The notes beneath the pieces were generated by a model. The model was not told where the DNA came from and made no database searches. It saw nothing but the letters and a program-made list of their open reading frames with translations. 64,000 bases of DNA, taken from the IMG/VR virus record IMGVR_UViG_3300027833_000017, one strand, 5' to 3'. Both the position numbers and the translations under genes were made by a program. This document shows, piece after piece, positions 29,495-63,014 of the stretch (position 1 is the stretch's first letter; each line of letters opens with the position of its first letter). The stretch comes from a virus.

Positions 29495-31048
29495 ATGAGC
29501 TACGATTATACAAGAACTGTCTCAATTACACCAGTAAGTACATCCTATTCATGGGATGCTACTCCTAATTGGATTACTATAACAAGAGTTTCTGTTAACT
29601 CTGACGACTGGACAATTACACTAGAACAAAACAACGGTGCTGCGCGAAGCGCAACACTTACTGTTAGGCATGCTAATTCAACAACGATTGACACTATTAC
29701 TGTAAATCAAGCTGAAGGCGTGGGTGTACCTGATCCAACTGCAACGCCAGTCCCAACTTCGGTTCCGAATGCAACCCCAGTTCCAACGGCACAACCAACA
29801 CCAGTTCCAACGGCACAACCAACACCAGTTCCAACGGCACAACCAACGTTAGGTCCAACCCCAGCGTTCACGTTCGCAACTAATACAACATCTGGTAATA
29901 GATTTGTATTTACACCTCAGTCGCTTAGTACTGATGTAGCGTATACAATTGTAGCTGATGGTCAGACTAGTCCAGCGGCACCTAGTAATTTTAGTACTAC
30001 GGGTGTTAGTGGAACAAACTTATCTGGTCCAACTGTAACACAAGACTCTAATGTATTTAATGGAACGTATAGGTTTACTAAAACTTTTTCACCTATAAAT
30101 AATATGAATGTTGACTGTACTGTAAATGCACCTTATGGCACATCCGACACATGGTACTGTGTACTCGAAGCTAATTCGGGAAGCAATAAAACCCCAACTG
30201 CAACTCCATCTCCAACTAGTGGAAGTGGAAGTGGCTCAGGGCCAGCTCCAACTGCGATGCCGACACCAGTTCCATCTGCAACATCACAACCTTATTATTT
30301 TAGATCAGCTACGCCATGTGATGGAGGTACAGCTAAAATTTTAAGAAGTGTTAATATTCTATCAAACAAGACTGCTGGAACTACTAATTGTCCTGGCCAA
30401 TCCGGAACAATTTACGAATTTACTGGTACTCAGTATATAGGTGATTCACAAACACCGTTTGACTGTACATACATGAGCCCTGCATTATGTGGCGGCGGAG
30501 GCACAGGCGGCGGCGGATGTCACGTAGCTGGAGAATTACTTACATTAGCCAATGGAGAAACTAAAGCGGTAGAGAATATAGTTATAGGGGATGACCTATT
30601 ATCTATTAACTTCGATGGATTTAGTTTGGACGGAGAATGGCAAGAATGGAAAAGAAGAGAAGAAACTCTAGAACCTGAATATACAAGCACTGTCGTTACA
30701 GGCATCAATGTCTTGGATTTTGATAAATATTACAACTTTAATAATGGATTATTAAAAATAACAGAAGAGCATCCAGTTCTAGTAAAAGACATGGTAGGCG
30801 ATATTTACTTTAAACAAGTGAGAGATATTGTTAATTCAGATTGGCTGTTAAACGAAGACAATATATGGGTAGATATTACATCTATAGAACTGGTAACAGT
30901 TCCTGAAAGATTTACAACCTATTCGTTCAATGTTGAAGAATGTGATTTATACTTTGCAAATGGTATAGTTGTACACAATGTTGAAGATCTTGAAAAAGAT
31001 TCTGAAGGGACCGGCGACGACGAATTTGGAGACGAAGGCATATACTAA
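29495..31048 (+). CDS. BACON-domain virion protein with Pro/Thr linkers and a C-terminal Hint (BIL/intein-like) domain
   Basis: PNWITIT...NNGAARSATLTV...ITVNQ indicates BACON. CHVAGELLTLANG...ITEEHPVLV...YSFNVEECDLYFANGIVVHN gives Hint blocks A, B, F and G. Confidence 0.85.
   Translation: MSYDYTRTVSITPVSTSYSWDATPNWITITRVSVNSDDWTITLEQNNGAARSATLTVRHANSTTIDTITVNQAEGVGVPDPTATPVPTSVPNATPVPTAQPTPVPTAQPTPVPTAQPTLGPTPAFTFATNTTSGNRFVFTPQSLSTDVAYTIVADGQTSPAAPSNFSTTGVSGTNLSGPTVTQDSNVFNGTYRFTKTFSPINNMNVDCTVNAPYGTSDTWYCVLEANSGSNKTPTATPSPTSGSGSGSGPAPTAMPTPVPSATSQPYYFRSATPCDGGTAKILRSVNILSNKTAGTTNCPGQSGTIYEFTGTQYIGDSQTPFDCTYMSPALCGGGGTGGGGCHVAGELLTLANGETKAVENIVIGDDLLSINFDGFSLDGEWQEWKRREETLEPEYTSTVVTGINVLDFDKYYNFNNGLLKITEEHPVLVKDMVGDIYFKQVRDIVNSDWLLNEDNIWVDITSIELVTVPERFTTYSFNVEECDLYFANGIVVHNVEDLEKDSEGTGDDEFGDEGIY
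29777..29848 (+). repeat. 24-bp tandem repeat x3 (PVPTAQPT)
   Basis: CCAGTTCCAACGGCACAACCAAC units seen directly. Confidence 0.9.
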
Positions 31049-42065: not shown

Positions 42066-43349
42066 ATGAAGATCTTTACTAATTTTAATGAATTTATAAC
42101 TGAACGACTACATATTAGTGTACCAGAATCTCTTATTTTAGAAGGTGGTGCAGCAGGTCACATGTCACATCCATTTGATGAGAAAGATTTAACATTTAGT
42201 GATTTTAAGAAAATTATTGAAGCAGGATTATATGGTGAACTAAACTTCGAAGAAGAAGCAACTGAAAAAACTGACGGTCAAAATGTATTTGCAACAGTTC
42301 AAGATGGAGAAGTAAAATTTGCCAGAAATAAAACTGAATTAGCAAATCCAATGGACCTTGCTACTTTTAAGAATAAGTTTGAAGGACATGCTAGTCCATT
42401 AGTACAAGATACTTTTCAATTTGCTGCAGAAGATTTAGCAAGCTCGTTAAATAAATTATCCCCTAAAGATTTAGAAGTTTTTGATAATGGTAAAAACTTT
42501 ATGAATATGGAGTTAATTTACTCTAAGAATCCTAACGTAATCTATTATGATCGTGATGTTATTCAATTTCATGGTATAAAGAAAACTGACGGTGAAGGTA
42601 ATACTATTGGAGATGATAACAAACCAGCAAGATCAATCGCTAAAGCAATGCAAGATCTTAAAATTAATGTTGGTAAAACATTTACAGTAATTCCACCTCA
42701 AGTTATTAAAATAGGAAAAGATTTAGATTTTGAAAAGAACAAAGCTAAATTTATCAAACAGGTAGAATCACTAAGAGATCGTTATGGTTTATCAGATGAT
42801 GATCAAGTTTCAAGATATCACGAAATGTGGTGGAGAGAAACTATTGATACAAACTTTTCTGATTTAGAACAAGATCATAAAGAAGGACTTCTTTTAAGAT
42901 GGGCGTATGGTGATAAAAAGACACTAAACTTAAGATCATTAGACAAAGATTTAGGTAAAGATAAAGCATCTCTTATTAAGAAATTTGATAAAGAAGATGT
43001 TAAGAAAAAATACAAGGAAAACATTAGACCATTTGAGGATTTATTCTTAGAATTGGGTTCTATTATCCTTAAGAATGCTTCTAATTTTGTTGCAGCAAAC
43101 CCAGATGCTGAAATGCAAAGGTTGCACGATCAAATAAGAACAGAAGCTGAAGGTATTAAGAAAACAGGAGGTGCAGCTCAGATCGCAAAGGTTGAAGCTG
43201 AACTTGCTAGGTTAGACAGAATTGGAGGAATAGAATCTATTATACCAACTGAAGGAATAGTTTTTGTGTACAAAGGAAAAACAATGAAATTAACAGGTAC
43301 GTTTGCAGCCATTAATCAATTAATGGGTATCATAAAATACGGAAGATAA
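42066..43349 (+). CDS. ligase-fold covalent nucleotidyltransferase (DUF6267-like), capsid-targeted
   Basis: MKIFTNFNEFITE start and GGAAGHMSHPFD. Ligase motifs: I EKTDG, III NMEL, IIIa IQFH, IV EGIV, V MKLTG. Confidence 0.65.
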   Translation: MKIFTNFNEFITERLHISVPESLILEGGAAGHMSHPFDEKDLTFSDFKKIIEAGLYGELNFEEEATEKTDGQNVFATVQDGEVKFARNKTELANPMDLATFKNKFEGHASPLVQDTFQFAAEDLASSLNKLSPKDLEVFDNGKNFMNMELIYSKNPNVIYYDRDVIQFHGIKKTDGEGNTIGDDNKPARSIAKAMQDLKINVGKTFTVIPPQVIKIGKDLDFEKNKAKFIKQVESLRDRYGLSDDDQVSRYHEMWWRETIDTNFSDLEQDHKEGLLLRWAYGDKKTLNLRSLDKDLGKDKASLIKKFDKEDVKKKYKENIRPFEDLFLELGSIILKNASNFVAANPDAEMQRLHDQIRTEAEGIKKTGGAAQIAKVEAELARLDRIGGIESIIPTEGIVFVYKGKTMKLTGTFAAINQLMGIIKYGR

Positions 43350-45196
43350 TGGCATTACAAAATTTAAGAACATATTTTCAATCAACCAACATTAATGATT
43401 TTAATTCAATGTTGAAATTAACATGTGTTGTATCAGAAAAAATACAAGCATCTTCGTTTCATGTTAAAAGCACTAGTACTGGTTATGAATATTTTAAAAG
43501 TGGTTCTAAACATAAAATGGATAAAGTAGATAGAACTATGGTAAGATACTATGAAAATGGTATCAATTACTTTAAAGCTATTCCTAAAGATGTAAAAGAA
43601 GATATGCCACATGATTGGAAATTCGGATTTGACTACATGATTGACAACAAGACAGTAGATATCGAATATGAAAGTCTTCCTAAAAATCACTTAATACTAA
43701 CACACATACAAATATTAAATCCTAAAAATCCCACACAAATCAAAAAAGTTATTAGAGATCCACAGATCTTAAATAAGTGGTCAGAATTATTAGGTGTTCA
43801 AAAACCTCCGGTTATATTTCAAGGAGTTTTACAATCAAATCAAAAAGATGACTTAATTAGATTACTAGAACTTTCTGATTCTGATTTTAAAATCAAATTC
43901 AAAGATCAATCTTTTACAAGAGCTATATTTAATATATTTAACATAGGTCTTAATAATCCAACGTTAAATTCTAATTTAGATAATGATATAGATGGTTTAA
44001 TAGTAAACTTCTATGAAGGTAAAAATCCAAAAAGTTTTAAACTTGAAAGATTTGACAGGAATGATGTTAAAAAAAGAGAGCCATCTGACATGTATCAGAT
44101 TGCAATATTAGATTTAGTAGAGTATATTACAGAGTTTAATCTTGAAGAAATTTCTTTAGAATCAGAAGATTCAGCAGAACGATATATTGAATTAATTTCA
44201 CACATCTTTAATGCATACATTGAAAAGAATGCTTCTAAATATGTAGGAGCTAGTTTTAATTCTGCGGATTTTTCAGAAAACAAAAGTTTTAAATTAAATC
44301 CAGTTTTTATTACAAATGAAAAAACACTATCATTAATACAGAATGACGTTTTATCAGAATTGTATAAAATAGCATTGGGTAGTTTTAGAAAAAAGAGAAA
44401 CAAAGAAACAGATATTATTAATAAAGATTTAATGTCGCAGATCAATGAAATAGTTGATAGTATAGATGCAATAGTAATGGCAAAAACAAATGAAAATGAT
44501 GTTCTTAATTTTAAGTCATATCTGTTAAATCAAAAATTACAATATAATGAATCTCCTGTTTTAGAAGCATTAAAGGTAGATTACCCAGAACATGGTAAGA
44601 AATTAGTTAATATGTTTGTTGGTAGATTTCAGCCTTTTACGTTGGGCCATGCTAAAGTAGTTGAAACTATTCATAAGCAAAATGGTCACCCGGTCGTAAT
44701 CTTATTAGTAAAGGCTAAGAAAAAGAAAAAAGAAGATGCATTTAAAAGACCTTATGATGAGGACACTCAAGTTGCAATGATTGATAGATTAAAATCTAAA
44801 TATCCAATTGAAGAAGTTTTTGTAATTCCAACGGGCGGTATTGACACTATGTTCAATGCAATGAGGCCAAAATACGAACCAGTGTTATGGGGAACCGGAA
44901 GTGACAGAATGAAAACTTATGGATTTCAAGTAGATAAACCAGAATATAGAGAAGATCTTGGAGTTAGAACTGATTTTGGACTTTATGAAATACCAAGAAC
45001 TGGCAAGAATATATCAGCAACACAAGTAAGAAATGCAATGTTAGATGGTGATGAGAAGCTATTTAAGAAGCTAACACCAAAACCGATACATGATATGTAT
45101 AATGAATTAAAATCTAAATTAGAAGATTCTATGGGTGTTGTAGCAGAATCAGATTCTAACACAATGACTTTCGATCAATTTTTAAAGAATATATAA
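43349..45196 (+). CDS. degenerate ligase-fold domain fused to an HxGH (cytidylyltransferase/NMNAT-like) nucleotidyltransferase
   Basis: N-part SEKIQASSF...DGLIV...FKL. C-part GRFQPFTLGH, GSDR and ISATQVR. Confidence 0.75.
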   Translation: MALQNLRTYFQSTNINDFNSMLKLTCVVSEKIQASSFHVKSTSTGYEYFKSGSKHKMDKVDRTMVRYYENGINYFKAIPKDVKEDMPHDWKFGFDYMIDNKTVDIEYESLPKNHLILTHIQILNPKNPTQIKKVIRDPQILNKWSELLGVQKPPVIFQGVLQSNQKDDLIRLLELSDSDFKIKFKDQSFTRAIFNIFNIGLNNPTLNSNLDNDIDGLIVNFYEGKNPKSFKLERFDRNDVKKREPSDMYQIAILDLVEYITEFNLEEISLESEDSAERYIELISHIFNAYIEKNASKYVGASFNSADFSENKSFKLNPVFITNEKTLSLIQNDVLSELYKIALGSFRKKRNKETDIINKDLMSQINEIVDSIDAIVMAKTNENDVLNFKSYLLNQKLQYNESPVLEALKVDYPEHGKKLVNMFVGRFQPFTLGHAKVVETIHKQNGHPVVILLVKAKKKKKEDAFKRPYDEDTQVAMIDRLKSKYPIEEVFVIPTGGIDTMFNAMRPKYEPVLWGTGSDRMKTYGFQVDKPEYREDLGVRTDFGLYEIPRTGKNISATQVRNAMLDGDEKLFKKLTPKPIHDMYNELKSKLEDSMGVVAESDSNTMTFDQFLKNI

Positions 45197-50310: not shown

Positions 50311-50341
50311 AGCCAAACATTTTTTTGTTTGGCTTTTTTTT
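50311..50341 (+). terminator. intrinsic terminator closing the internal-protein array
   Basis: AGCCAAACA-TTTTTT-TGTTTGGCT stem-loop followed by a T run. Confidence 0.75.
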
Positions 50342-50612: not shown

Positions 50613-50775
50613 TATAAGTTCACCAGTGATCTGTAACACAGTAATAAACATAATCATAGTAATATGCATTTAAGTAATCATTAATCATGGGAGCATCTCT
50701 GTGTCGCACCCAAATTAAACCGAATATATAATTAAACAAATTTAAGCTTGTGTGTATAACTACTAAACGTTTTAT

Positions 50776-51084
50776 ATGTCTAAAAAGAAAACAAACATCC
50801 TATCTGAAGCTAACGAAATAGTAAACAATCGCTCAGAAGAAAAATCACGTCAATACGGTCCATTCGAAGAAGGTATGCGAAGAGCTGCTATGATTTTTAA
50901 TGGCATGACAGGTAAAGAACTAAACGGCTCAGATATGTATGCTGCACTTGTGGCACTTAAACTAAGTCGACACTCTTATAATTATAAACAAGACAATCTG
51001 CTAGATGCAGTTGCATATTTAGGTGCACTAGATAACTATGTTGAAAAGCACGGTTATAAAGACACTGAAGATCCAATAAAATAA
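50776..51084 (+). CDS. DUF6378-like all-alpha nucleotide pyrophosphatase-type protein
   Basis: RSEEKSRQYG...ALKLSR...DNLLDAVAY pattern. It is the first gene after a GAAAC-N17-type promoter. Confidence 0.65.
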   Translation: MSKKKTNILSEANEIVNNRSEEKSRQYGPFEEGMRRAAMIFNGMTGKELNGSDMYAALVALKLSRHSYNYKQDNLLDAVAYLGALDNYVEKHGYKDTEDPIK

Positions 51085-51087
51085 ATT

Positions 51088-52149
51088 ATGACAGAACTAA
51101 CATTTTTTACAGAAAAGGAAACCGACAAATCGATTAGAGTAGGTATATGCGCATTAGTCGGTAAGATTAGCCCTAAAATCTCATCACATAAAGGCGCATG
51201 GGCCCACATGCTATATAATCAATTACAAAACGCAGGGTATTCTAATGCAGAAGTAATCACATCTAACCAAACTGATTGGAATGACTATGACGCAATTCTA
51301 ATTGATCATGGTATGGAATTTAAAGGCACCTTCAATATATTCGGAGGATCTAATGATGATTTATATCACCAATTAATGAGGTTATTTTCCCCCGTTAAAA
51401 AATATTCTTTACATCATGATATGCCAGATATTGGTAATTTGATTCAAACTAGACTCAATGCGGGAACTGATTTATTTAAAACACTTGAAACTAGAATTGA
51501 AGAAGCAACCGAACTATGTAAAAATATACATCGTGTAGATCACATAGATAAAACAGAAAAACTATGTTTTGGTGATAGTCACTCTTTTGGAATGTATCAA
51601 GCAGGATATATGTGTCAAAGACACGATGGATTAACTATGCACGGTGCATTAAAAAGAGGTTTACAAAGTTATGTATATCCATGGGTTAAAAGTCTAACAG
51701 TTTATATGGGTAATATTGATGTAAGACATCATTTGATGCGCCAATCTAATCCTTCAGATTCTGTAAAAACACTTCTAAAAAAATATGAAGATGAACTTAT
51801 TAGTTTGGGTATTAGTGACATTGAGATTGTACATGTTTTGCCAATTGAAAACGAATCTAGACCATTGCCAAAAACAGGTTATTACAAAGGAACGCCATTT
51901 GCTGGAACATGGTCAGAACGTAATGTTCTTGTAAATGAAATTAATTTAGGCATTGATGATATGGCTAAAAGAAATAACTGGAAAGTTTATAAACACCCAG
52001 AAGTTTATTTTAATGCAAAAGAAGAATTAACATTTGATGTTATGGAAAAGCCTAAATCAGTTCATATTTCTAGAGAGTATTACAGATGGAACATGGAAAC
52101 AAATCAACCAAATAAAAATTTAATTAAACAAACACTATCTTTATTTTAA
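51088..52149 (+). CDS. predicted DNA-modifying chimera: beta-glucosyltransferase-like N-domain plus SGNH acyl-hydrolase/transferase domain
   Basis: DWNDYDAILI...FNIFGG...YSLHHDMP resembles the T4 BGT N-domain. FGDSHS, MGNID and SVH are SGNH blocks I, III and V. Confidence 0.5.
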   Translation: MTELTFFTEKETDKSIRVGICALVGKISPKISSHKGAWAHMLYNQLQNAGYSNAEVITSNQTDWNDYDAILIDHGMEFKGTFNIFGGSNDDLYHQLMRLFSPVKKYSLHHDMPDIGNLIQTRLNAGTDLFKTLETRIEEATELCKNIHRVDHIDKTEKLCFGDSHSFGMYQAGYMCQRHDGLTMHGALKRGLQSYVYPWVKSLTVYMGNIDVRHHLMRQSNPSDSVKTLLKKYEDELISLGISDIEIVHVLPIENESRPLPKTGYYKGTPFAGTWSERNVLVNEINLGIDDMAKRNNWKVYKHPEVYFNAKEELTFDVMEKPKSVHISREYYRWNMETNQPNKNLIKQTLSLF

Positions 52150-52152
52150 TAT

Positions 52153-52305
52153 ATGAAAGAATACCAAATAATAATAACACCATTAAATGCCAACGATGCT
52201 AGCTACATATTAGTAATTGAATCTGATAGAATAGAGTGGTCGATGGAACAATACCAAAGAAACCGAGATGCTTTCGATTGGAAAATCAAAGAAGTGAATG
52301 AGTAA
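52153..52305 (+). CDS. small hypothetical protein (50 aa, not in the ORF track)
   Basis: MKEYQIIITPLNANDASYILVIESDRIEWSMEQYQRNRDAFDWKIKEVNE fills the gap exactly and overlaps the next start. Confidence 0.5.
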   Translation: MKEYQIIITPLNANDASYILVIESDRIEWSMEQYQRNRDAFDWKIKEVNE

Positions 52306-53518
52306 CAAAGTTCAAATTAAGACAACTAAATATTATGATGAGTTTATCAGATATTATGACCTGGCATTAAAGCAACAAGAGCTTTCTAATTTAGGAATGG
52401 TCCCTCATGCTGAAAGTGGCATGAATGACCCATTAATGGAACACATTGAATTATATGATGTTGTAGAAAGAAAATATGCTGGGTTTAGTCAAATCGTAAA
52501 TGATTGTTTTTATGGATGGACAGATAAACATCCATATTGGGAACACATGCAAGCTGGTAAAATTTACCCCCAAAGAGAAGAGGTTGCAAAAAATTGGACT
52601 AGTCGTCAAGATGTTTTCGGATTAGAAGAGTGGCTTTATATTTTTATTTTACATAGAGTTTGTGGCTCTGCAATTAATTACGCAACTAAACCATCAGGCT
52701 ATCACAACACAATCTTATTCGATTTATATGATTGCAATACTATTGAAGATATGTGTGAAAAGGTAAAATATCATCCAACTCCATTTTATACTTCAGTAGG
52801 ATACCAATTTCCTGCCTTTCCGAAGCCACCTAAACCAAATGTTAACGAAGATTCATTCGTAGGCATGTCTAATTTTACTGAACCAGAATATGTGTATAAA
52901 AGAGGAGGAGATTATTTCTTATGTGAATTTGCACCAAGAATGGCCAGAGACATGGCAAACTTCTTAAGAACAGATGGTAAAAAAGATTTAAGAGAATTAG
53001 GTGAATGGATGTTTAAATGGAATGCTGATAATGGATTAAGAGCATATAGATTTCAATACGCCGCAGTTATTGCAGATGTATGTGACTGGTACCCAGAATT
53101 TATGAACAGAGAATCAATGTTTTATTATGGCACTAACGCAGTAGAATGTATTGGTTATCTTGCAGACCCTATAGAAAAAAAGGGTAAGAAGTCTGAAGAA
53201 TTTTTAGATGCAGTTATGACTAAAATTTACGAAGACACAGGTTCATTACCATATAACGCAGAAGATGTTGCATGTGATTTTATCAGATGGATTGAAAATT
53301 ATTTAAAACCAGGACCTGATTATGCACACATCAACATGGATGCTTTATGGAATTCATCTTCGATCACAGATCATCCATATGGTCGTCAAAAAGCAATGTT
53401 AGATTTAGGTCTAGTAGAAACCTTTAATGGAATGTCACAATTTCCATCGGACGATAAGATTTTACAAAGCGCAGGAGTTTCAGTTGAAGAATATAAAAAA
53501 ATGGTAAGCAAATTATGA
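52298..53518 (+). CDS. HhH-fold DNA hypermodification enzyme (aGPT-Pplase/amino-acid:DNA transferase-like), paralog 1
   Basis: YDVVERKY...FQYAAVIADV...GTNAVECI...AEDVACDFIRW resembles the ExxxC(E/D)FxK/R C-terminal motif. A PLP enzyme and a dNTPase are neighbours. Confidence 0.55.
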   Translation: MSNKVQIKTTKYYDEFIRYYDLALKQQELSNLGMVPHAESGMNDPLMEHIELYDVVERKYAGFSQIVNDCFYGWTDKHPYWEHMQAGKIYPQREEVAKNWTSRQDVFGLEEWLYIFILHRVCGSAINYATKPSGYHNTILFDLYDCNTIEDMCEKVKYHPTPFYTSVGYQFPAFPKPPKPNVNEDSFVGMSNFTEPEYVYKRGGDYFLCEFAPRMARDMANFLRTDGKKDLRELGEWMFKWNADNGLRAYRFQYAAVIADVCDWYPEFMNRESMFYYGTNAVECIGYLADPIEKKGKKSEEFLDAVMTKIYEDTGSLPYNAEDVACDFIRWIENYLKPGPDYAHINMDALWNSSSITDHPYGRQKAMLDLGLVETFNGMSQFPSDDKILQSAGVSVEEYKKMVSKL

Positions 53519-54657
53519 GTAACAAACAAGATATAATTAGAGAACCTCGACTTAAAATTGAACACAACCCAAAAACAGGTTCATATGTGTCAGATTTTTT
53601 ACAAAAAAAACTATTTGAATTAGAGGGTGAAAAAGAAACCAATTACAACAATATACAATATCCTAACACTAACTTAGATATCGAATTTAAAAAGAAGAAA
53701 CCTAAAGAGAGTTGGATGAAAGATTGGACTCAAGAGGAACGTTTTGATAAATTCTTTGAATTCTGCGATGCATTCGATAAGAGGCAAGACAAATTATTAT
53801 TAGAAGATTATCAGATATTTTCACATAGATTACACTGGCATGAACATCCATATTGTTATATGATGCAACATGAAACCGATTTAGAAAAACTATTATATTA
53901 TACAATTGTATTTTCTTTTAGTAATGAGCACTGGGGAACAATTATGAGATTGATCAATGATGGTGAAGAAAAAACACGTGAGCACTTTAAAGAGAATCGA
54001 CATGCTCGTAACGATCTATTTCAGATCTATTATCCTAAAGGCACTCAAGTAAAAGATTGGTTATTAGAAGGTCCAAAAAAAGCGGCTAAAGATATGGTTC
54101 ATATTTTAGAAGATTTAAAAAGACCATATACAATGATGGAATTTGCTAAATTATTAGAGGCTTATTTTAAAGAACATCAAAACTTTAGATCACCATTATA
54201 TCCATGTAAGAACACTGCAAGATATGTGGCTATGAGTCGACCAGATTTAGTAGATCCTGAATCTATCTTATTCGGTGGCACTGGACATTTTGATGGAATG
54301 CAACAGATATTTGGAGGTCCAAACCTAAATGGTAAAGTAAAATATAGTATTGATACAGATGGTCAATTTATAGCAGAAAATGCACATGCTCAAACATGGA
54401 TTGATCAGATGAACATTTTAGCAAATCACCCAAATAATCCAATGACTAGTCAAAAGATGTTGAACGTAGAGGATAAAACATGTTTTTTTTATAAGCACAT
54501 TGCAATTAGTCATGGTATTAAATCACCAACAAAAAGAATTCCATATACTTGGATATTCGAAGGTAATTTTAATTTAGCTAAACATCCAACTGAAGATGTT
54601 GTAGTTAATGCAGACACAACAAGACATTTATGGGGTAGAGAATATCCAAACGAGTAA
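53515..54657 (+). CDS. HhH-fold DNA hypermodification enzyme-like, paralog 2
   Basis: YPCKNTARYVAMSRPDLVDPES...GTGHFDGM...VEDKTCFFYKH is collinear with paralog 1. Confidence 0.5.
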   Translation: MSNKQDIIREPRLKIEHNPKTGSYVSDFLQKKLFELEGEKETNYNNIQYPNTNLDIEFKKKKPKESWMKDWTQEERFDKFFEFCDAFDKRQDKLLLEDYQIFSHRLHWHEHPYCYMMQHETDLEKLLYYTIVFSFSNEHWGTIMRLINDGEEKTREHFKENRHARNDLFQIYYPKGTQVKDWLLEGPKKAAKDMVHILEDLKRPYTMMEFAKLLEAYFKEHQNFRSPLYPCKNTARYVAMSRPDLVDPESILFGGTGHFDGMQQIFGGPNLNGKVKYSIDTDGQFIAENAHAQTWIDQMNILANHPNNPMTSQKMLNVEDKTCFFYKHIAISHGIKSPTKRIPYTWIFEGNFNLAKHPTEDVVVNADTTRHLWGREYPNE

Positions 54658-54661
54658 AATA

Positions 54662-55330
54662 ATGAAGATGAAAAATAAGGCAGAAGACGCATGGCAAATA
54701 CTTAGAATTCAGGGTGAATTCACTAAAGGATTTGACACATTTAATCAATTAGAAGGATCATATGTATCAGTTTTTGGAAGTGCAAGAACATTAAGTACTA
54801 ATTCAATTTATAAAGAAGCAGAAAAACTAGGTAAATTATTAGTTGAATCAGGCTTTGGCGTAATTACAGGAGGTGGACCAGGAATTATGGAGGCTGCCAA
54901 TAAAGGAGCCCATGAAGCTGGAGGACAATCAATAGGAGTTGGCATTGAATTGCCATTTGAGGCTAGTATGAATGAATACGTAGATCTTGGCGTAGAGAAC
55001 AGATATTTCTTTACTCGTAAAGTAATGTTCTTAAAATATTCACAAGCGTTTGTGATATTTCCAGGTGGGGTTGGAACATTAGATGAATTGTTTGAAGCTA
55101 TTACGTTAGCACAATGCGGACATAATGTAAAATATCCAATTGTTCTAGTAGGTAAAAAATACTGGGAAGGATTAATTGATTGGATGCAAAATACACTATG
55201 GGAACACGGTGCAATAAGTCAAAAAGACTTTGATTTATTTAGAGTTGTAGATACTGCAGAAGAAGCCGTTGCAAAAATTACAGATTATCACAACAAATAT
55301 AAAGATAATAATTCAAAAACAAACTTTTAA
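54662..55330 (+). CDS. LOG-family nucleotide phosphoribohydrolase (TIGR00730-like)
   Basis: VSVFGSAR, ITGGGPGIMEAANKGA, FFTRKVMF and PGGVGTLDE. Start moved from 54608 to 54662 to remove the overlap. Confidence 0.9.
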   Translation: MKMKNKAEDAWQILRIQGEFTKGFDTFNQLEGSYVSVFGSARTLSTNSIYKEAEKLGKLLVESGFGVITGGGPGIMEAANKGAHEAGGQSIGVGIELPFEASMNEYVDLGVENRYFFTRKVMFLKYSQAFVIFPGGVGTLDELFEAITLAQCGHNVKYPIVLVGKKYWEGLIDWMQNTLWEHGAISQKDFDLFRVVDTAEEAVAKITDYHNKYKDNNSKTNF

Positions 55331-56227
55331 ATGGCCCATAATAAACACACAACAAGTACAATGAATCAGGATTTAAATCTAATGATGCCAAATAGACAAG
55401 CTTGGTTAGATTTAGCTGGAGATTGGCAAGATCCACTAGATGATCCAATTATTGTGAATCATGAAGGATTTAATGTAGTAAGAGATGACATGATGGGCTT
55501 TGGATCTAAATGTAGATTTGGAGATATCTTAGTACAGAAAGCACCGACCGACACATTAGTATATGTACAGCCCAGATTTGGATTCGCAGGAATTTCTCTT
55601 GCGTACTTAGCAAAAAAATACAATAAGAAGTTAGTATTATTTATGCCATCTGGTAAAGTAATATCAGATCACCAAGCCATATGCATTGAAAGAGGTGCTA
55701 TTGCTAAATTTAGAAGAATCGCAGCAATGCCTAATTTAAATAGAATTGCAAAACAATGGGCAGAAGATAATAACGCTACATTTATTCCGTTAGGACTTAA
55801 ACATGAATTGGTAACTGCAGCTGCGGTAAAAGTTGCATATGATGTAGCAGAAAAACATGGATATCCAGAAGAAGTATGGTCAGCAATATCAACTGGAGTT
55901 TTACAACGCTCTTTACAAATTGCATGGCCAGATGCTGAATTTAATGCAGTTGCAGTTTCTAGAAATATTCAGAACGGTGAATTGGGTAGAGCTAAAGTTT
56001 GGTCTCATCCAAAGGCATTTGCATCAGATGTAAAACCAGAATTTGCCCCTCCATTTCCATCAGCAATGAACTACGATGCAAAGGCTTGGGAATTTATGGT
56101 TAAGCACGGAAATCAAGGGGCTTGGTTTTGGAATGTAGGTGGACAACCTTACCCAGAATCAGAAGAAACTAAAGAAAAAACAAATTCAAAAAGAGAATGG
56201 GGAGAAGTTTTAGAAATGGACCTATAA
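55331..56227 (+). CDS. PLP-dependent enzyme (fold type II), of the type found in phage base-hypermodification clusters
   Basis: VVRDD...GSKCR (PLP lysine), GFAGISLAY, SAISTGVL, NYDAKAW and FWNVG. Confidence 0.75.
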   Translation: MAHNKHTTSTMNQDLNLMMPNRQAWLDLAGDWQDPLDDPIIVNHEGFNVVRDDMMGFGSKCRFGDILVQKAPTDTLVYVQPRFGFAGISLAYLAKKYNKKLVLFMPSGKVISDHQAICIERGAIAKFRRIAAMPNLNRIAKQWAEDNNATFIPLGLKHELVTAAAVKVAYDVAEKHGYPEEVWSAISTGVLQRSLQIAWPDAEFNAVAVSRNIQNGELGRAKVWSHPKAFASDVKPEFAPPFPSAMNYDAKAWEFMVKHGNQGAWFWNVGGQPYPESEETKEKTNSKREWGEVLEMDL

Positions 56228-56279
56228 AAACTGAAACTTTAAATTAAAATATCATATTAATAGTATAACAAATTAAATT

Positions 56280-56747
56280 ATGGCAAACATCGATAACGAA
56301 TGTAAAGATCTAGAAGTTAAAGATTTTTACGACCAATCAACAACACACCTTGCAGACATCATGGAAAACCAAAAGAAGATGCAAGAGCAAACTTATGGTA
56401 TTAACTTTGATAATATGACCATCCGAGAAATTATGGATTTCTGGCATGTTAACACACACTCGCTAATGGATGAAGTTCATGAAATGACAGATGCTCTCGG
56501 TGGAATTAAAGACGGTAGTGGAAACGCAGTATGGAAATACTGGAAGAAAGACTTTACAAAATATAATACATTAAAAATTTCTGACATGTCCGAAGGAGAC
56601 AAGAAGGAATTGTATATGGAATGGGTAGATATTCTACACTTCTTTATCAATTATGCATCTTCAATTGGGCTTGATGCCAAAACAGCTTACAATTACTACT
56701 TTGCAAAAGCTGAAGAGAATGTTAACCGTCAGAAAAACAATTATTAA
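56280..56747 (+). CDS. dCTP/dUTP pyrophosphatase, T4 gp56-like
   Basis: NEC, DEVHEM, AVWKYWK, ELYMEWVDILHF and YYFAKAEENVNRQKNNY are collinear with gp56. Confidence 0.8.
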   Translation: MANIDNECKDLEVKDFYDQSTTHLADIMENQKKMQEQTYGINFDNMTIREIMDFWHVNTHSLMDEVHEMTDALGGIKDGSGNAVWKYWKKDFTKYNTLKISDMSEGDKKELYMEWVDILHFFINYASSIGLDAKTAYNYYFAKAEENVNRQKNNY

Positions 56748-58150
56748 TGCTATTAGACATTGAACAAACTAGTAATGAACTAATTATTTCTTATTATAAT
56801 AAAGAAGGTAAAGTTTCATTTAAAAGATACGGAGTTAATCAATTCCAAAATTGGGTAGTCACCAAAGAAACAGACAAACACAAAGATAAAACATATAGAA
56901 ACTGGGACGATCGTCCTCTTAAAAGAGGTTTTGCTAAATCGTTTAACAAGTTTAGCTTGCTTTATTTTATGGACTCTTTACCAGAGGCTGATAAAGAAGA
57001 GATTTATGAATTCAATATGCCAAGAACATATTTTGTCGATATTGAAACAGAAATTGTAGATGGTTTCCCAAAACCAGAAGAAGCAAAATCACGTATATTG
57101 TCATTCTCTATTATTACACCAGAGCGTAAAGCTATTGTTTTAGGTCTAGAAGATATGCCTCATGATAAAGTTAAAAAAATCAATGATGATACTAACAAAT
57201 ATCTAAAAAATTATGATCAAGATTGGGAATTCTCTTATCATAAGTTTGACGACGAGTATAATATGTTATATACATTTCTACATAAGTTTTTACCTAAATT
57301 CCCAATGATGACAGGGTGGAACTTTATAAACTATGATTGGCAGTATATAGTTAATAGATGTAAACGATTACAAATAGACCTGACTGACGTGGCAATCACT
57401 GGATCATTAGATAGAAACGATAGTAGACCACTTCACATGGGTATTCTCGATTATATGCAATTATATGATAAATATGATCGTTCAGTTGCAGTAAAAGAAT
57501 CAAACTCATTAGATTTTGTTTCAGGCGCAGTATTAGATATTAATAAAATTAAATATAGTGGATCATTGCAGGATTTATATGAAAATGATTTTACTAAATA
57601 TATTTATTATAATGTAATTGATTCATGTTTAGTATATTATATTGATCAACAATTAAGATCAATGGAAGTTCTTTTAACATTAGCAACTATTACTAGAATG
57701 CCTCTTTATAAAGCTTCTTCACCCGTGGCTATCACAGAATCTTTATTGGCAAGAAAATTAGCTGAAACTAATAAGAAAATAGGTGTAGAATATGGAAAGG
57801 CAGATTCTCTTAAAGAAGGTAAATTCGAAGGCGCATTTGTAAAACAACCAATTGTAGGGTATTATTCTGGAGTAAGTGCATTTGATTTTGCTTCACTATA
57901 TCCATCAATAATGAGACAGTTTAACATTTCACCAGAATCTTTCGTTGAACAGGTAACTGAACCTGAAATTAACGAAAGAAGAAAGGATGAAAACGTAATT
58001 GTTTGTGAGAATGGTGTTGTCTATAAAAAAGAAGATTCAATCTTAAAAAAGATTTTAAGTGATTTATATTCTCAAAGAAAGGATTACAAAAAGACTTCAT
58101 ATGCGTATTATGAGAAGGCTTATGAACTAGAAAAAAAAATAAAAAAATAA
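56747..58150 (+). CDS. family B DNA polymerase, N-terminal subunit (exonuclease plus palm motif A; gp43A-like)
   Basis: DIETE, GWNFINYDW, YNVID and DFASLYPSIM. The protein ends in the first fingers helix. Confidence 0.9.
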   Translation: MLLDIEQTSNELIISYYNKEGKVSFKRYGVNQFQNWVVTKETDKHKDKTYRNWDDRPLKRGFAKSFNKFSLLYFMDSLPEADKEEIYEFNMPRTYFVDIETEIVDGFPKPEEAKSRILSFSIITPERKAIVLGLEDMPHDKVKKINDDTNKYLKNYDQDWEFSYHKFDDEYNMLYTFLHKFLPKFPMMTGWNFINYDWQYIVNRCKRLQIDLTDVAITGSLDRNDSRPLHMGILDYMQLYDKYDRSVAVKESNSLDFVSGAVLDINKIKYSGSLQDLYENDFTKYIYYNVIDSCLVYYIDQQLRSMEVLLTLATITRMPLYKASSPVAITESLLARKLAETNKKIGVEYGKADSLKEGKFEGAFVKQPIVGYYSGVSAFDFASLYPSIMRQFNISPESFVEQVTEPEINERRKDENVIVCENGVVYKKEDSILKKILSDLYSQRKDYKKTSYAYYEKAYELEKKIKK

Positions 58151-61805: not shown

Positions 61806-63014
61806 ATGACAATAGAAGAGTTAGAACAAAAATCAATTGAACAACTTACAGATGATGAGGCAAAGCTGCTTGTAGACCACTACAAGCAGCTGTCTGCCAA
61901 ATTCACAGCATACGAGCAAGCTGTTAAGTTAACTCTTAATTCTATTTATGGAGCATTCGGTAATAAGTGGTTTCACTTTTTTAATCTTGACATTGCTGAA
62001 TCAATTACCAAACAAGGTAAGAATGCAATTCTTTATTCCGAAACAATTCTTAACAAATATGTTAATGATTTTTGGCACAAAGATACTGCAGTTCATGAGA
62101 AATTTAACATCAAAGTAAAAGGTAAAATTGAAAAACCTGCAGTAATTTATATTGATACCGATTCATGTTATGTGCAGTTTCAAGATTTATATGAATCTAT
62201 AATCTGGTCAGAAGAAGATAAAAAATTACCAATTGATGAATTTATTTTAGCGTTTTATGCATTTAGATTAAAAGATTACATATCTAAAACCATGGAAAAA
62301 TATGCAGAGAAAAGAAACACAGATAATTTCTTATTCTTTGAACTAGAATCATTGGCGTATAATGGTATTTGGATGTCTAAAAAGAAATACATTCAAAATC
62401 TAGCATGGGATGATAAATTAGAAGTAACTGAACGCCACCCTTCATTGAAAAAAGTAAAAACTATTGGATTTGATACAATTCAATCTTCAACCCCTAAGTT
62501 TGCTAGAGAGAAATTAGTAGAAGCACTTAGAATTTTATTTTCATCAGAGATTCAACCATCAGCAAAAGAATTACAACAATTGGTTGAGTTTATGAAGCAG
62601 TGTAAAAAGGAATTTAAATTAGCAGGCATTGATGATATTGCGTTTAATAAAAGAACTAATAATATTGACAAATATATCATCGATGATCAAGAAGAATTAC
62701 AAATAGGTTTAAAATGTCCAGCTAATGTAAAAGCCGCAGGATATTACAATTATATTTTAAATAACAATAAAAAATATAAAAACAAATATAAACTTATTGC
62801 TAATGGTGAAAAACTTAAAATATACAATTGTATAGGACAAATTAGTGAAGTATATGCTTTTATGCCAAACGAACACCCTTATGAAATAGCACCCAAAGTA
62901 GATTATGATACTCAATTTGAAAAGGCGATGATTGACCCTCTAAATAGAGTACTCACCGCAATAGGTTTACAAACACTAGATACTAATCTAATATATGCTT
63001 CGGCATTATTTTAA
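61806..63014 (+). CDS. family B DNA polymerase, C-terminal subunit (motifs B and C, thumb; gp43B-like)
   Basis: KLTLNSIYG, YIDTDS, KKKY and SSTP, ending in YASALF. Confidence 0.9.
   Translation: MTIEELEQKSIEQLTDDEAKLLVDHYKQLSAKFTAYEQAVKLTLNSIYGAFGNKWFHFFNLDIAESITKQGKNAILYSETILNKYVNDFWHKDTAVHEKFNIKVKGKIEKPAVIYIDTDSCYVQFQDLYESIIWSEEDKKLPIDEFILAFYAFRLKDYISKTMEKYAEKRNTDNFLFFELESLAYNGIWMSKKKYIQNLAWDDKLEVTERHPSLKKVKTIGFDTIQSSTPKFAREKLVEALRILFSSEIQPSAKELQQLVEFMKQCKKEFKLAGIDDIAFNKRTNNIDKYIIDDQEELQIGLKCPANVKAAGYYNYILNNNKKYKNKYKLIANGEKLKIYNCIGQISEVYAFMPNEHPYEIAPKVDYDTQFEKAMIDPLNRVLTAIGLQTLDTNLIYASALF

What the first reader, a model, noticed from the sequence alone, without database searches (positions are those of the whole stretch)
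50776..56747. DNA hypermodification cluster with an unfamiliar enzyme set, predicting an uncharacterised base
Seen: one tightly coupled operon of DUF6378-like, BGT-N/SGNH chimera, 50-aa ORF, two HhH aGPT-Pplase-like paralogs, LOG and PLP enzyme, followed by a gp56-like dNTPase overlapping the polymerase start. Established: in ViI/M6/SP10/phiW-14-type pathways, a 5hmU DNA kinase activates the base, aGPT-Pplase/AADT enzymes add an amino acid or amine, and PLP enzymes tailor it. No kinase or hydroxymethylase is visible in this window; an SGNH chimera and LOG appear instead, and gp56 and BGT are hmC-pathway components in T4. Inference: a different activation or tailoring route, possibly on cytosine, giving an acylated or amino-acid-derived base.
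Basis: partly seen in the sequence, partly recalled or inferred. Interest (0 to 1): 0.85.

Follow-up and report, generated by a model that had tools for sequence, protein, structure and literature searches.

The report
Kinase-less cytosine DNA hypermodification operon
Just upstream of its DNA polymerase, an uncultured marine T4-like phage carries distant relatives of the enzymes that attach amino acids to thymine in other phages' DNA; its relatives link the set to hydroxymethylcytosine, and an esterase-fold protein sits where the usual DNA kinase would be, so the virion DNA probably carries a decorated cytosine that I did not find described in the papers I could search.

Summary
Window 50776-56747 is one co-directional, overlapping gene string. 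It runs DUF6378, a two-domain SGNH protein (p353), a conserved 50-aa ORF, two amino-acid:DNA-transferase (AADT)-like proteins (p406, p380), LOG, a PLP enzyme and a gp56-like dNTPase that abuts the split PolB.

- **p406:** it folds like PaMx11 gp46, a solved AADT (Z 9.4). Both p406 and p380 keep that enzyme's catalytic motif as E-D-x-x-C, where thymidine AADTs have E-T-x-x-C.
- **PLP enzyme:** it belongs to phrog_7093, the family of the characterised decarboxylase M6 gp52, and its lysine aligns with M6 K36.
- **Co-occurrence:** p353, p406 and PLP are together in 44 of 44 related loci with full flanks. p380 (29 of 44) and LOG (14 of 44) are accessory.
- **Fusions:** natural p353-p406 fusion proteins exist.
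- **Kinase:** no 5-hmdU DNA kinase was found.
- **Base:** relatives carry thymidylate-synthase homologues with the dCMP-hydroxymethylase signature, in several lineages directly beside the cassette.

Best reading: post-replicative hypermodification of 5-hydroxymethylcytosine, with p353 taking the kinase's activating role. That last step is inferred. The product is unknown, and the window's own genome could not be searched. This scan reached the same reading earlier on related phage DNA.

The parts
50311..50334 (+). Terminator-like hairpin that closes the upstream block; the 5' boundary of the unit
   Evidence: 9-bp stem, 4 G-C pairs, then a T-run. An A/T-rich TATATAAT-containing spacer lies at 50613-50775.
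50776..51084 (+). DUF6378 protein (102 aa), function unknown, tied to the hydroxymethylase/p353 pair
   Evidence: PF19905 7e-12. Present in 41 of 44 loci. It is 62-72% identical even in distant lineages, where it sits between the TS-like gene and p353.
51088..52149 (+). p353: N-terminal alpha/beta domain (about 1-150, possibly BGT-N-like) plus a C-terminal SGNH esterase/acyltransferase-fold domain (about 154-342). Proposed activating enzyme.
   Evidence: Model pLDDT 90.5. SGNH hits: Foldseek 1e-5, VIA Z 12.8. S164, G186, N209 and H326 invariant. Natural fusions to p406. hhalign to a BGT-like protein: probability 38%, E 3e-4.
52153..52305 (+). Conserved 50-aa ORF, function unknown
   Evidence: tblastn matches in 36 of 44 loci. 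Translation.
52298..53518 (+). p406: AADT-like HhH-fold transferase with an E322-D323-x-x-C326 motif. Core enzyme.
   Evidence: Model pLDDT 93.5. Top solved match is 8z2m_A, PaMx11 gp46, Z 9.4 over 211 residues. In BFVD the top hit is a 57%-identical 'Amino acid:DNA transferase domain-containing protein'. E and C of the motif are invariant in 46 of 46 sequences.
53515..54657 (+). p380: second, divergent AADT-superfamily protein with an E319-D320-K-T-C323 motif. Accessory.
   Evidence: hhalign to the p406 family: probability 94.5%, E 7.7e-8. Motif invariant in 19 of 19 sequences. Nearest ESM Atlas clusters carry PF18723/PF18724. Present in 29 of 44 loci.
54608..55330 (+). LOG-family nucleotide 5'-monophosphate N-glycosidase (probable start near 54662). 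Accessory.
   Evidence: PF03641 2e-36, TIGR00730 1e-48. Present in 14 of 44 loci. An 87%-identical copy lies beside thyA in relative G002.
55331..56227 (+). Fold-type-II PLP enzyme of the M6 gp52 family; proposed decarboxylase of the DNA-bound amino acid
   Evidence: phrog_7093 4e-39. M6 gp52 hits the same PHROG at 3.6e-159. K60 aligns with M6 K36, and the C-terminal PFP..YD.KAW..FWN.G motif is shared. Present in 44 of 44 loci.
56280..56747 (+). gp56-like dCTPase/dUTPase (all-alpha NTP pyrophosphatase)
   Evidence: phrog_173 3e-13. tblastn 31-37% identity, E about 1e-17, to annotated gp56 of T4-like phages. Present in 42 of 44 loci.
56747..58150 (+). N-terminal half of a split family-B DNA polymerase; the 3' neighbour of the cassette
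   Evidence: PF00136 and PF03104. The C-terminal half lies at 61806-63014.

Best explanation
This is a post-replicative DNA base hypermodification cassette that most likely works on 5-hydroxymethylcytosine (5hmC).

Step 1 is inferred from relatives. A T4 gp42-type dCMP hydroxymethylase encoded elsewhere in the genome, helped by the gp56-like dCTPase encoded here, puts 5hmC into phage DNA during replication.

Step 2 is inferred. p353 binds the hydroxymethyl base and uses its SGNH serine-esterase/acyltransferase domain to convert the poor hydroxyl leaving group into an ester. That is the job done by the 5-hmdU DNA kinase in thymidine pathways.

Step 3 rests on fold and motif. p406, and p380 where present, attack C6 of the flipped base with their conserved cysteine, expel the leaving group, and add a nucleophile, probably an amino acid joined through its side chain. 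Their Asp, in place of the Thr of thymidine enzymes, would suit the cytosine N4 amino group.

Step 4 rests on family membership. The M6 gp52-type PLP enzyme decarboxylates the appended amino acid to an amine.

LOG is an accessory nucleotide-pool enzyme. The roles of DUF6378 and the 50-aa protein are unknown.
For: - **p406 fold:** the confident model (pLDDT 93.5) matches best the solved AADT PaMx11 gp46 (Z 9.4). A 57%-identical viral protein is named an AADT-domain protein.
- **Catalytic motif:** PaMx11 gp46 uses E243, T244 and the nucleophile C247 (PMC11472151). M6 gp51 and PhiW-14 gp109 have E-T-x-x-C. p406 and p380 have invariant E-D-x-x-C with the same spacing.
- **p380:** related to p406 by hhalign (94.5%). 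Its nearest ESM Atlas clusters carry PF18723/PF18724.
- **PLP enzyme:** same PHROG as the experimentally characterised decarboxylase M6 gp52 (PMC8989533), with the lysine aligned.
- **Co-occurrence:** p353, p406 and PLP are together in 44 of 44 loci.
- **Fusions:** p353 and p406 are fused in natural proteins of 640-790 aa. 5-HMUDK/AADT fusions are reported in thymidine systems (PMC8989533).
- **Cytosine link:** the TS-like genes of relatives best match T4 dCMP hydroxymethylase (2.7e-20 and 1e-75). They carry the residues given in PMC13326640 for 5hmdCMP synthases: the catalytic Cys, L143D, D169 kept, N177D. In L078, L101, L175, L171 and L179 they lie within about 1-2 kb of the cassette. A canonical ThyA is also present in G002 (signature confirmed) and a strong ThyA match in G005.
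- **No kinase:** no PF18723 or PF18724 match in five related records of 126-212 kb.
Against: - The window's own genome is not held, so its hydroxymethylase was not seen. The related records are 43-76% complete, so a kinase could have been missed.
- The Pfam AADT models do not match p406 or p380. hhalign against three canonical AADTs found nothing, though that is a weak test.
- No acyl donor, and no precedent for an SGNH enzyme acting on DNA, is known to me.
- The SGNH domain lacks the usual Asp of the triad.
- The TS-like gene of relative G002 carries a 1-nt insertion.
- gp56 homologues can be plain dUTPases.
- No chemistry was measured.
Confidence: 0.6

Rival explanations
1. The cassette and the target base are as proposed, but p353 is not the activator. 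The AADT-like enzymes substitute the hydroxyl of 5hmC directly through the C6-thiol adduct. The SGNH domain instead tailors the product, for example by hydrolysing or transferring an ester on the appended group, or it delivers an ester-bound donor.
For: - SGNH enzymes are mostly esterases.
- No acyl-donor gene is evident in the operon.
- In the sister cassette p353 is kept while the tailoring genes differ. That fits any step common to all the cassettes.
- From my own knowledge, C5-methyltransferases can exchange the hydroxyl of 5hmC with thiols without prior activation.
Against: - The p353-p406 fusions, and the fact that p353 sits next to the hydroxymethylase even where PLP is absent, fit an early shared step better than late tailoring.
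- Known AADTs need a phosphate leaving group (PMC8989533, PMC11472151).
Confidence: 0.22
2. The cassette modifies thymidine through 5-hydroxymethyluracil, as in ViI and M6. The dUMP hydroxymethylase and the DNA kinase are encoded outside the stretches examined.
For: - Every characterised AADT and gp52-type PLP enzyme acts on 5-hmdU derivatives (PMC8989533).
- dCMP deaminase genes lie near the cassette in L078, L101 and L175.
- The related records are incomplete.
Against: - Every cassette-linked TS-like gene has Asp at the N177 position, which gives dCMP specificity. The ThyA of G002 has the canonical TS signature; G005 also has a strong ThyA match.
- No PF18723 kinase was found in 126-212 kb of five relatives.
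- The T-to-D change in the AADT motif is invariant in p380 (19 of 19) and near-invariant in p406 (42 of 46).
- T4 itself also encodes a dCMP deaminase.
Confidence: 0.1
3. This is not a DNA modification system. The HhH-fold proteins are DNA glycosylases or nucleotide-salvage hydrolases (Qng1-like), working with LOG and the dNTPase on nucleotide pools or on repair.
For: Qng1/DUF2419 and many DNA glycosylases score Z 5-8.9 against the p406 model. LOG and two pyrophosphatase-like genes lie in the operon.
Against: - The best structural match is an AADT.
- The invariant E-[TD]-x-x-C motif matches the catalytic motif described for PaMx11 gp46 and is also present in M6 gp51 and PhiW-14 gp109.
- A gp52-family PLP enzyme always accompanies p406.
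- LOG is dispensable, present in 14 of 44 loci.
Confidence: 0.05

Closest known systems
Thymidine hypermodification pathways of phages M6, ViI, PaMx11 and PhiW-14 (dUMP hydroxymethylase, 5-hmdU DNA kinase, AADT/aGPT-Pplase2, PLP decarboxylase; PMC8989533, PMC11472151)
   Same: An HhH-fold transferase with a catalytic Cys in an E-x-x-x-C motif. A PLP enzyme of the same PHROG as M6 gp52, with the lysine aligned. The genes are clustered near replication genes. Pathway enzymes occur as natural fusions.
   Different: - No P-loop 5-HMUDK. An SGNH two-domain protein is the constant partner and the fusion partner instead.
- The motif is E-D-x-x-C, not E-T-x-x-C.
- The linked thymidylate-synthase homologue has the dCMP signature, not the dUMP one, and a normal ThyA is present.
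- Pfam's AADT models do not recognise the proteins.
- There are two divergent transferases in tandem.
T4 hydroxymethylcytosine pathway (gp42 dCMP hydroxymethylase, gp56 dCTPase, alpha/beta-glucosyltransferases)
   Same: A gp56 homologue sits in the operon. gp42-type genes are in relatives, adjacent to the cassette in L078. The phage is T4-like (gp32, UvsW, UvsX, PolB). The p353 N-domain may resemble the BGT acceptor domain.
   Different: There is no glucosyltransferase in this cassette. The decoration step uses AADT-like and PLP enzymes instead of sugar transfer.
Sister cassette in related marine phages
   Same: It fills the same slot between DUF6378-p353 and the gp56-like gene and PolB. It has the same p353 partner and a helical PF18723-superfamily protein.
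   Different: It carries an inositol-1-phosphate-synthase-like gene, an FkbM methyltransferase and, in L104, a T4 BGT-like gene. It has no p406/p380 and no PLP gene. This implies another substituent.
Aeromonas phage 44RR2.8t ORF233c (795 aa; phrog_17781) and homologues in phages 31, 25, Aes012 and IME13
   Same: The N-terminal 335 aa are homologous to p353 (31-36% identity). The C-terminus gives a weak PF18723 hit (0.0036). The phage has both ThyA and a second TS-like gene.
   Different: The C-terminal domain is not recognised by the p406 or p380 profiles. No gp52-type PLP neighbour is present. A sodium:solute symporter gene lies next door.

Membership tests
Amino acid:DNA transferase (AADT / aGPT-Pplase2, PF18724) | HhH-glycosylase-derived helical fold like the solved PaMx11 gp46 | tested here: met
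   In the wide VIA search, the p406 model's top hit among 48,161 chains is 8z2m_A: Z 9.4, rmsd 4.0, 211 residues. HhH glycosylases follow. p380 is linked to p406 by hhalign at 94.5%.
Amino acid:DNA transferase (AADT / aGPT-Pplase2, PF18724) | Catalytic E-T-x-x-C motif with the C6-attacking cysteine (PaMx11 E243/T244/C247) | tested here: met
   The spacing, the Glu and the Cys are invariant in both families. Thr is replaced by Asp: p406 E322-D323-V-A-C326, p380 E319-D320-K-T-C323.
Amino acid:DNA transferase (AADT / aGPT-Pplase2, PF18724) | Match to the Pfam model above its gathering score | tested here: not met
   Neither p406 nor p380 hits at E <= 0.1. One of 46 relatives hits PF18724 at 1e-3, and one hits PF18723 at 0.01.
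Amino acid:DNA transferase (AADT / aGPT-Pplase2, PF18724) | Works with a 5-hmdU DNA kinase that supplies a phosphorylated base | tested here: not met
   No PF18723 or PF18724 match in the window's operon or in five related records of 126-212 kb. Those records are incomplete, so absence is not proven.
Amino acid:DNA transferase (AADT / aGPT-Pplase2, PF18724) | Transfers a free amino acid or amine to C5-methylene of a pyrimidine in DNA | not testable with these tools
   Needs biochemistry.
M6 gp52 / ViI gp226 type PLP-dependent decarboxylase (phrog_7093) | Family profile match and aligned Schiff-base lysine | tested here: met
   Window protein 4.4e-39, M6 gp52 3.6e-159, both to phrog_7093. K60 aligns with M6 K36. 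The C-terminal motif is shared.
M6 gp52 / ViI gp226 type PLP-dependent decarboxylase (phrog_7093) | Decarboxylates an amino acid attached to a DNA base | not testable with these tools
   Inferred from family membership only.
SGNH/GDSL hydrolase superfamily (p353 C-domain) | SGNH fold with the Ser, Gly, Asn and His block residues | tested here: met
   Foldseek 1e-5 to 3p94; VIA Z 12.8. S164, G186, N209 and H326 are invariant in 22 of 22 sequences.
SGNH/GDSL hydrolase superfamily (p353 C-domain) | Asp of the D-x-x-H block completing the triad | tested here: not met
   The position three residues before H326 is Lys or Gln. An invariant E320 lies six residues before it.
T4 beta-glucosyltransferase N-terminal (acceptor) domain (PF09198), for the p353 N-domain | Sequence or profile similarity to BGT | tested here: inconclusive
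   No Pfam or PDB sequence hit. hhalign of the p353 family against a phage PF09198 protein aligns residues 16-111 with 1-106, including FNxFGG: probability 38%, E 3e-4. The domain could not be folded and searched alone.
T4 gp56 dCTPase/dUTPase | Homology to annotated gp56 of T4-like phages | tested here: met
   tblastn 31-37% identity, E down to 9e-18, over 81-98% of the protein. phrog_173 3e-13. Substrate preference not testable.
LOG / TIGR00730 nucleotide N-glycosidase | Full-length family match | tested here: met
   PF03641 covers positions 1-131 of 131 at 2e-36. TIGR00730 scores 165 bits against a cut-off of 96.
T4 gp42-type dCMP hydroxymethylase (in relatives) | Catalytic Cys, acidic residue at ThyA L143, Asp at N177, Asp169 kept (PMC13326640) | tested here: met
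   All four residues are present in the TS-like genes of L083, L084, L096, L078, L101, L118, L146, L150, L169, L171, L175, L178 and L179. The best PDB hit is 1b49. The window's own genome is not held.

The most novel reading that the evidence does not exclude
Phage DNA is activated for base substitution without a kinase. A protein that joins a glucosyltransferase-like hmC-binding domain to an SGNH acyltransferase domain esterifies 5-hydroxymethylcytosine in DNA. Cysteine-dependent AADT-like enzymes then displace the ester with different nucleophiles. Swappable cassettes in one genomic slot (amino acid plus PLP decarboxylase here; inositol-phosphate-synthase, methyltransferase and BGT-like genes in sister phages) would give a family of undescribed cytosine hypermodifications in abundant marine phages.
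Probability: 0.3. Interest if true: 0.9.

Novelty: new variant of a known kind. Interest (0 to 1): 0.8.

Why it matters
All characterised amino-acid-type DNA hypermodifications are built on thymidine and need a DNA kinase. A cytosine-based, kinase-less version would add a new base chemistry and possibly a new way of activating DNA bases.

It would also explain a gene set found in hundreds of marine phage contigs: 937 database proteins for p406 alone.

New enzymes that write on 5hmC would interest people working on phage anti-restriction and on epigenetic sequencing chemistry.

The hypothesis is directly testable, because hmC DNA is easy to make with T4 enzymes, and cultured Aeromonas phages carry the p353-type partner.

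Tried and rejected
- **Phage GenBank collection:** blastn of the region, and tblastn of p406 and p380, found nothing.
- **Own genome:** the window's assembly is not held, and the nearest record G001 lacks the region.
- **p406 against p380 by BLASTP:** no similarity. Only profiles link them.
- **PDB sequence searches:** searches with p406, p380, DUF6378, the p353 N-domain and profiles A1 and A4 were empty or gave chance-level hits only.
- **Foldseek against PDB for p406:** nothing significant. VIA-align was needed.
- **hhalign of A1 and A2 against a 3-sequence canonical AADT alignment:** no hit. I regard this as a weak test, not a refutation.
- **A1 profile against the ViI, M6, PhiW-14 and SP10 genomes:** no real hit.
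- **Window PLP protein against those four genomes:** no hit in the loose search. Pairwise BLASTP and the PHROG profile do link it to M6 gp52.
- **44RR ORF233c C-terminus:** it does not match the p406 or p380 HMMs.
- **ESM Atlas for the p353 N-domain:** no usable hit.
- **5-hydroxycytosine synthase reading of the TS-like genes:** rejected, because the diagnostic D169N change is absent.
- **Literature:** I found no paper describing this gene set. Iyer et al. 2013 is not in the library.

Full report
**Context.** The window comes from an uncultured, low-GC (about 31%) T4-like phage. It encodes gp32, UvsW and UvsX-like proteins and ribonucleotide reductase. Its family-B polymerase is split into two genes, with nrdB and nrdA between them. 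The nearest polymerases in GenBank phages are only 33-47% identical. They belong to uncultured huge phages, Sphingomonas phage PAU and Chryseobacterium phages. Homologues of the cassette proteins are abundant in marine metagenomes, including Tara samples. The window's own assembly is not held.

**The observation.** ORFs lie at 50776-51084, 51088-52149, 52153-52305, 52298-53518, 53515-54657, 54608-55330, 55331-56227 and 56280-56747, all on the + strand. They overlap or abut one another, and the last shares one base with the polymerase start at 56747. A strong terminator-like hairpin at 50311-50334 closes the preceding block, and there is no good terminator inside the string. The gene string is real and tightly coupled.

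**What each gene is.**
- **DUF6378:** matches PF19905 at 7e-12.
- **LOG:** a full-length LOG/TIGR00730 protein.
- **155-aa protein:** a homologue of T4-type gp56 dCTPase/dUTPase, 31-37% identical, E about 1e-17.
- **p353, p406 and p380:** none has a Pfam or NCBIfam hit.

**p406.**
- *Model:* a profile search gave 142 representatives at 50% clustering. With 46 of them the AlphaFold model reached pLDDT 93.5.
- *Solved structures:* Foldseek found nothing significant among solved structures. The exhaustive VIA search ranks PaMx11 gp46, the solved 5-PmdU glycinyltransferase, first (Z 9.4, 211 residues). Qng1 and a long series of HhH DNA glycosylases follow.
- *Predicted viral structures:* the top hit is a 57%-identical protein that UniProt names as carrying an amino-acid:DNA-transferase domain. 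Pplase1 and 5-hmdU-kinase helical-domain proteins follow.
- *Pfam:* one of the 46 relatives hits PF18724 at 1e-3 and another hits PF18723 at 0.01.

**p380.** BLASTP shows no similarity to p406. Profile-profile comparison aligns its C-terminal 128 columns with p406 at 94.5% probability, E 7.7e-8. The nearest ESM Atlas clusters carry PF18723/PF18724.

**The shared catalytic motif.** The structural paper on PaMx11 gp46 identifies E243 and T244 at the metal/O4 site and C247 as the nucleophile that attacks C6 (PMC11472151).
- M6 gp51 and PhiW-14 gp109 have E-T-x-x-C.
- p406 has E322-D323-V-A-C326. E and C are invariant in 46 of 46 sequences, and D is present in 42 of 46.
- p380 has E319-D320-K-T-C323, invariant in 19 of 19 sequences.

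So both proteins keep the catalytic apparatus of an AADT, with a systematic Thr-to-Asp change.

**The PLP enzyme.** It matches PF00291 only weakly, at 1e-4, but phrog_7093 at 4e-39. M6 gp52, shown experimentally to decarboxylate the amino acid on DNA (PMC8989533), matches the same PHROG at 3.6e-159. In an alignment, K60 of the window protein falls on M6 K36, the predicted Schiff-base lysine. A C-terminal motif, PFP..YD.KAW..FWN.G, is shared.

**p353.**
- *C-terminal domain:* the model (pLDDT 90.5) has an SGNH domain at residues 154-342, with Foldseek 1e-5 and VIA Z up to 12.8. Ser164, Gly186, Asn209 and His326 are invariant, but the usual triad Asp is missing.
- *N-terminal domain:* the alpha/beta domain has no sequence match to solved BGT structures. 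The family profile aligns residues 16-111 with the first 106 residues of a phage protein that does match PF09198, the T4 beta-glucosyltransferase family. The alignment includes the FNxFGG loop, at 38% probability and E 3e-4. This is a lead, not a demonstration.

**Comparative genomics.**
- *Co-occurrence:* among 44 IMG/VR loci with enough flank, p353 and the PLP gene accompany p406 in all 44. The gp56-like gene is present in 42, DUF6378 in 41, the 50-aa ORF in 36, p380 in 29 and LOG in 14.
- *LOG:* in relative G002 an 87%-identical LOG lies beside thyA instead. LOG is therefore a roaming accessory gene, not a core member.
- *Fusions:* natural proteins of 640-790 aa join a p353-like half (40% identity, 2e-76) to a p406-like half that has the E-D-x-x-C motif.
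- *L078-L080:* in this more distant lineage the order is p406, p380, PLP, p353.

**Which base.** No thymidylate-synthase homologue lies in the window.
- *G005, G002 and G017:* relatives G005, G002 and G017 each carry a second, divergent TS-like gene. The G005 copy best matches T4 dCMP hydroxymethylase in the PDB, at 2.7e-20. G002 and G005 also carry a strong ThyA match, and the G002 copy has the canonical TS signature.
- *L078:* a 1e-75 homologue of T4 gp42 and a dCMP deaminase sit immediately upstream of p406.
- *Fusion-type loci:* L101 and L175 show the order TS-like, DUF6378, fusion, PLP, dCMP deaminase. L118, L146, L150, L169 and L178 also have a TS-like gene within 10 kb.
- *Signature residues:* PMC13326640 gives three residues. 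N177D gives dCMP specificity. L143D/E goes with a hydroxymethyl rather than a methyl product. D169N is diagnostic of 5-hydroxycytosine synthases. Every cassette-linked gene has the catalytic Cys, Asp at 143, Asp at 177 and Asp kept at 169. That is the 5hmdCMP-synthase pattern.
- *Kinase:* no PF18723 or PF18724 match was found in five related records of 126-212 kb.

Cytosine is therefore the likelier substrate. The Thr-to-Asp change in the transferase motif parallels the Asn-to-Asp change that switches thymidylate synthases to cytosine. That parallel is my inference.

**Mechanism.**
- *Shown by fold, motif and family:* Cys-dependent transferases and a gp52-type PLP enzyme act together.
- *Inferred from context:* the substrate is 5hmC in DNA.
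- *Inferred from position only:* p353 replaces the kinase as the activator. Two observations suggest this. It is the constant partner and the fusion partner of the transferase. It also stays next to the hydroxymethylase and DUF6378 in sister phages where the rest of the cassette differs. The most economical chemistry is O-acylation of the hydroxymethyl group by the SGNH serine. I found no acyl donor and no precedent.
- *Inferred from PLP chemistry:* PLP enzymes need a free alpha-amine (PMC8989533), and no radical-SAM isomerase is present. The appended amino acid is therefore probably linked through its side chain, as serine is in ViI.

**A modular slot.** In a sister clade (L104-L177) the same slot lies between DUF6378-p353 and the gp56-like gene and PolB. 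There it holds:
- an inositol-1-phosphate-synthase-like gene;
- a 132-aa ORF;
- an FkbM methyltransferase;
- a PF09198 BGT-like gene, in L104 only;
- a protein matching PF18723 above threshold, at 32-47 bits.

This supports reading p353 plus a helical transferase as the common core, with interchangeable tailoring sets.

**Cultured handles.** T4-like Aeromonas phages (44RR2.8t, 31, 25, Aes012 and others) and Stenotrophomonas phage IME13 carry p353 homologues. In 44RR2.8t the p353 homologue is the N-terminus of the 795-aa ORF233c. Its C-terminus gives a weak PF18723 hit (0.0036), and a sodium:solute symporter gene lies beside it. 44RR2.8t has both ThyA and a second TS-like gene.

**Limits.**
- No chemistry was measured.
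- The window's own genome was not available, and the related records are fragments.
- The p353 N-domain could not be folded alone.
- I found no paper describing this gene set, and one key early paper is not in the library.

After I had reached these conclusions, the scan's own index showed that other agents had reached the same 'kinase-less hydroxymethylcytosine cassette' reading on related phage DNA. That is not independent evidence.

Noticed in passing
L104:9673-16364, L137:9739-15184, L171:8263-14306: Sister phages fill the same slot with another cassette. It runs DUF6378, p353, an inositol-1-phosphate-synthase-like gene, a 132-aa ORF, an FkbM methyltransferase, a T4 BGT-like gene (L104 only) and a PF18723 helical-domain protein, followed in L104 and L137 by the gp56-like gene and PolB. 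The gp56-like gene was not found in L171. This suggests a different, possibly cyclitol- or sugar-derived, base decoration.
   Followed up: partly
L093:5375-9355 (Aeromonas phage 44RR2.8t ORF234c and ORF233c): A cultured T4-like phage has a 795-aa protein whose N-terminus is p353-like and whose C-terminus gives a weak PF18723 hit. A sodium:solute symporter gene lies beside it. The phage also has a second TS-like gene. Its DNA modification is, as far as I could find, uncharacterised.
   Followed up: partly
L084:1486-2341 (relative G002): The dCMP-hydroxymethylase-like gene of G002 carries a 1-nt insertion relative to G005, just after the catalytic motifs. It splits the gene into 187-aa and 114-aa frames. 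This could be an assembly error or a pseudogene.
   Followed up: partly
L083:319-3619 and L084:112-3409: In relatives the TS-like gene lies between ClpB-like AAA+ and ClpP protease genes, an unusual neighbourhood for a phage nucleotide-metabolism gene.
   Followed up: no
window 56747-58150 and 61806-63014: The family-B DNA polymerase is split into two genes 3.6 kb apart. nrdB, nrdA and a 247-aa ORF lie between them.
   Followed up: no
window 43349-45196: A 615-aa ORF has a C-terminal cytidylyltransferase-like (HxGH nucleotidyltransferase) domain, PF01467 1e-8. Large ORFs without Pfam matches surround it.
   Followed up: no
window 29495-31048: A 517-aa ORF gives sub-threshold Pfam hits to a BACON domain (1e-4, 22.4 bits against a cut-off of 25) and to an intein-splicing model (0.004). 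The BACON hit hints at a Bacteroidota host.
   Followed up: no
L078:87-509: A GNAT acetyltransferase gene lies just upstream of the gp42-like gene and the cassette in the distant lineage. It is a possible tailoring enzyme, comparable to PaMx11 gp48.
   Followed up: no
window 53515-53665: Most p380 homologues are about 330 aa and lack the first 50 or so residues of the window's 380-aa ORF. Only the closest relatives share the extension, so the true start is uncertain.
   Followed up: no
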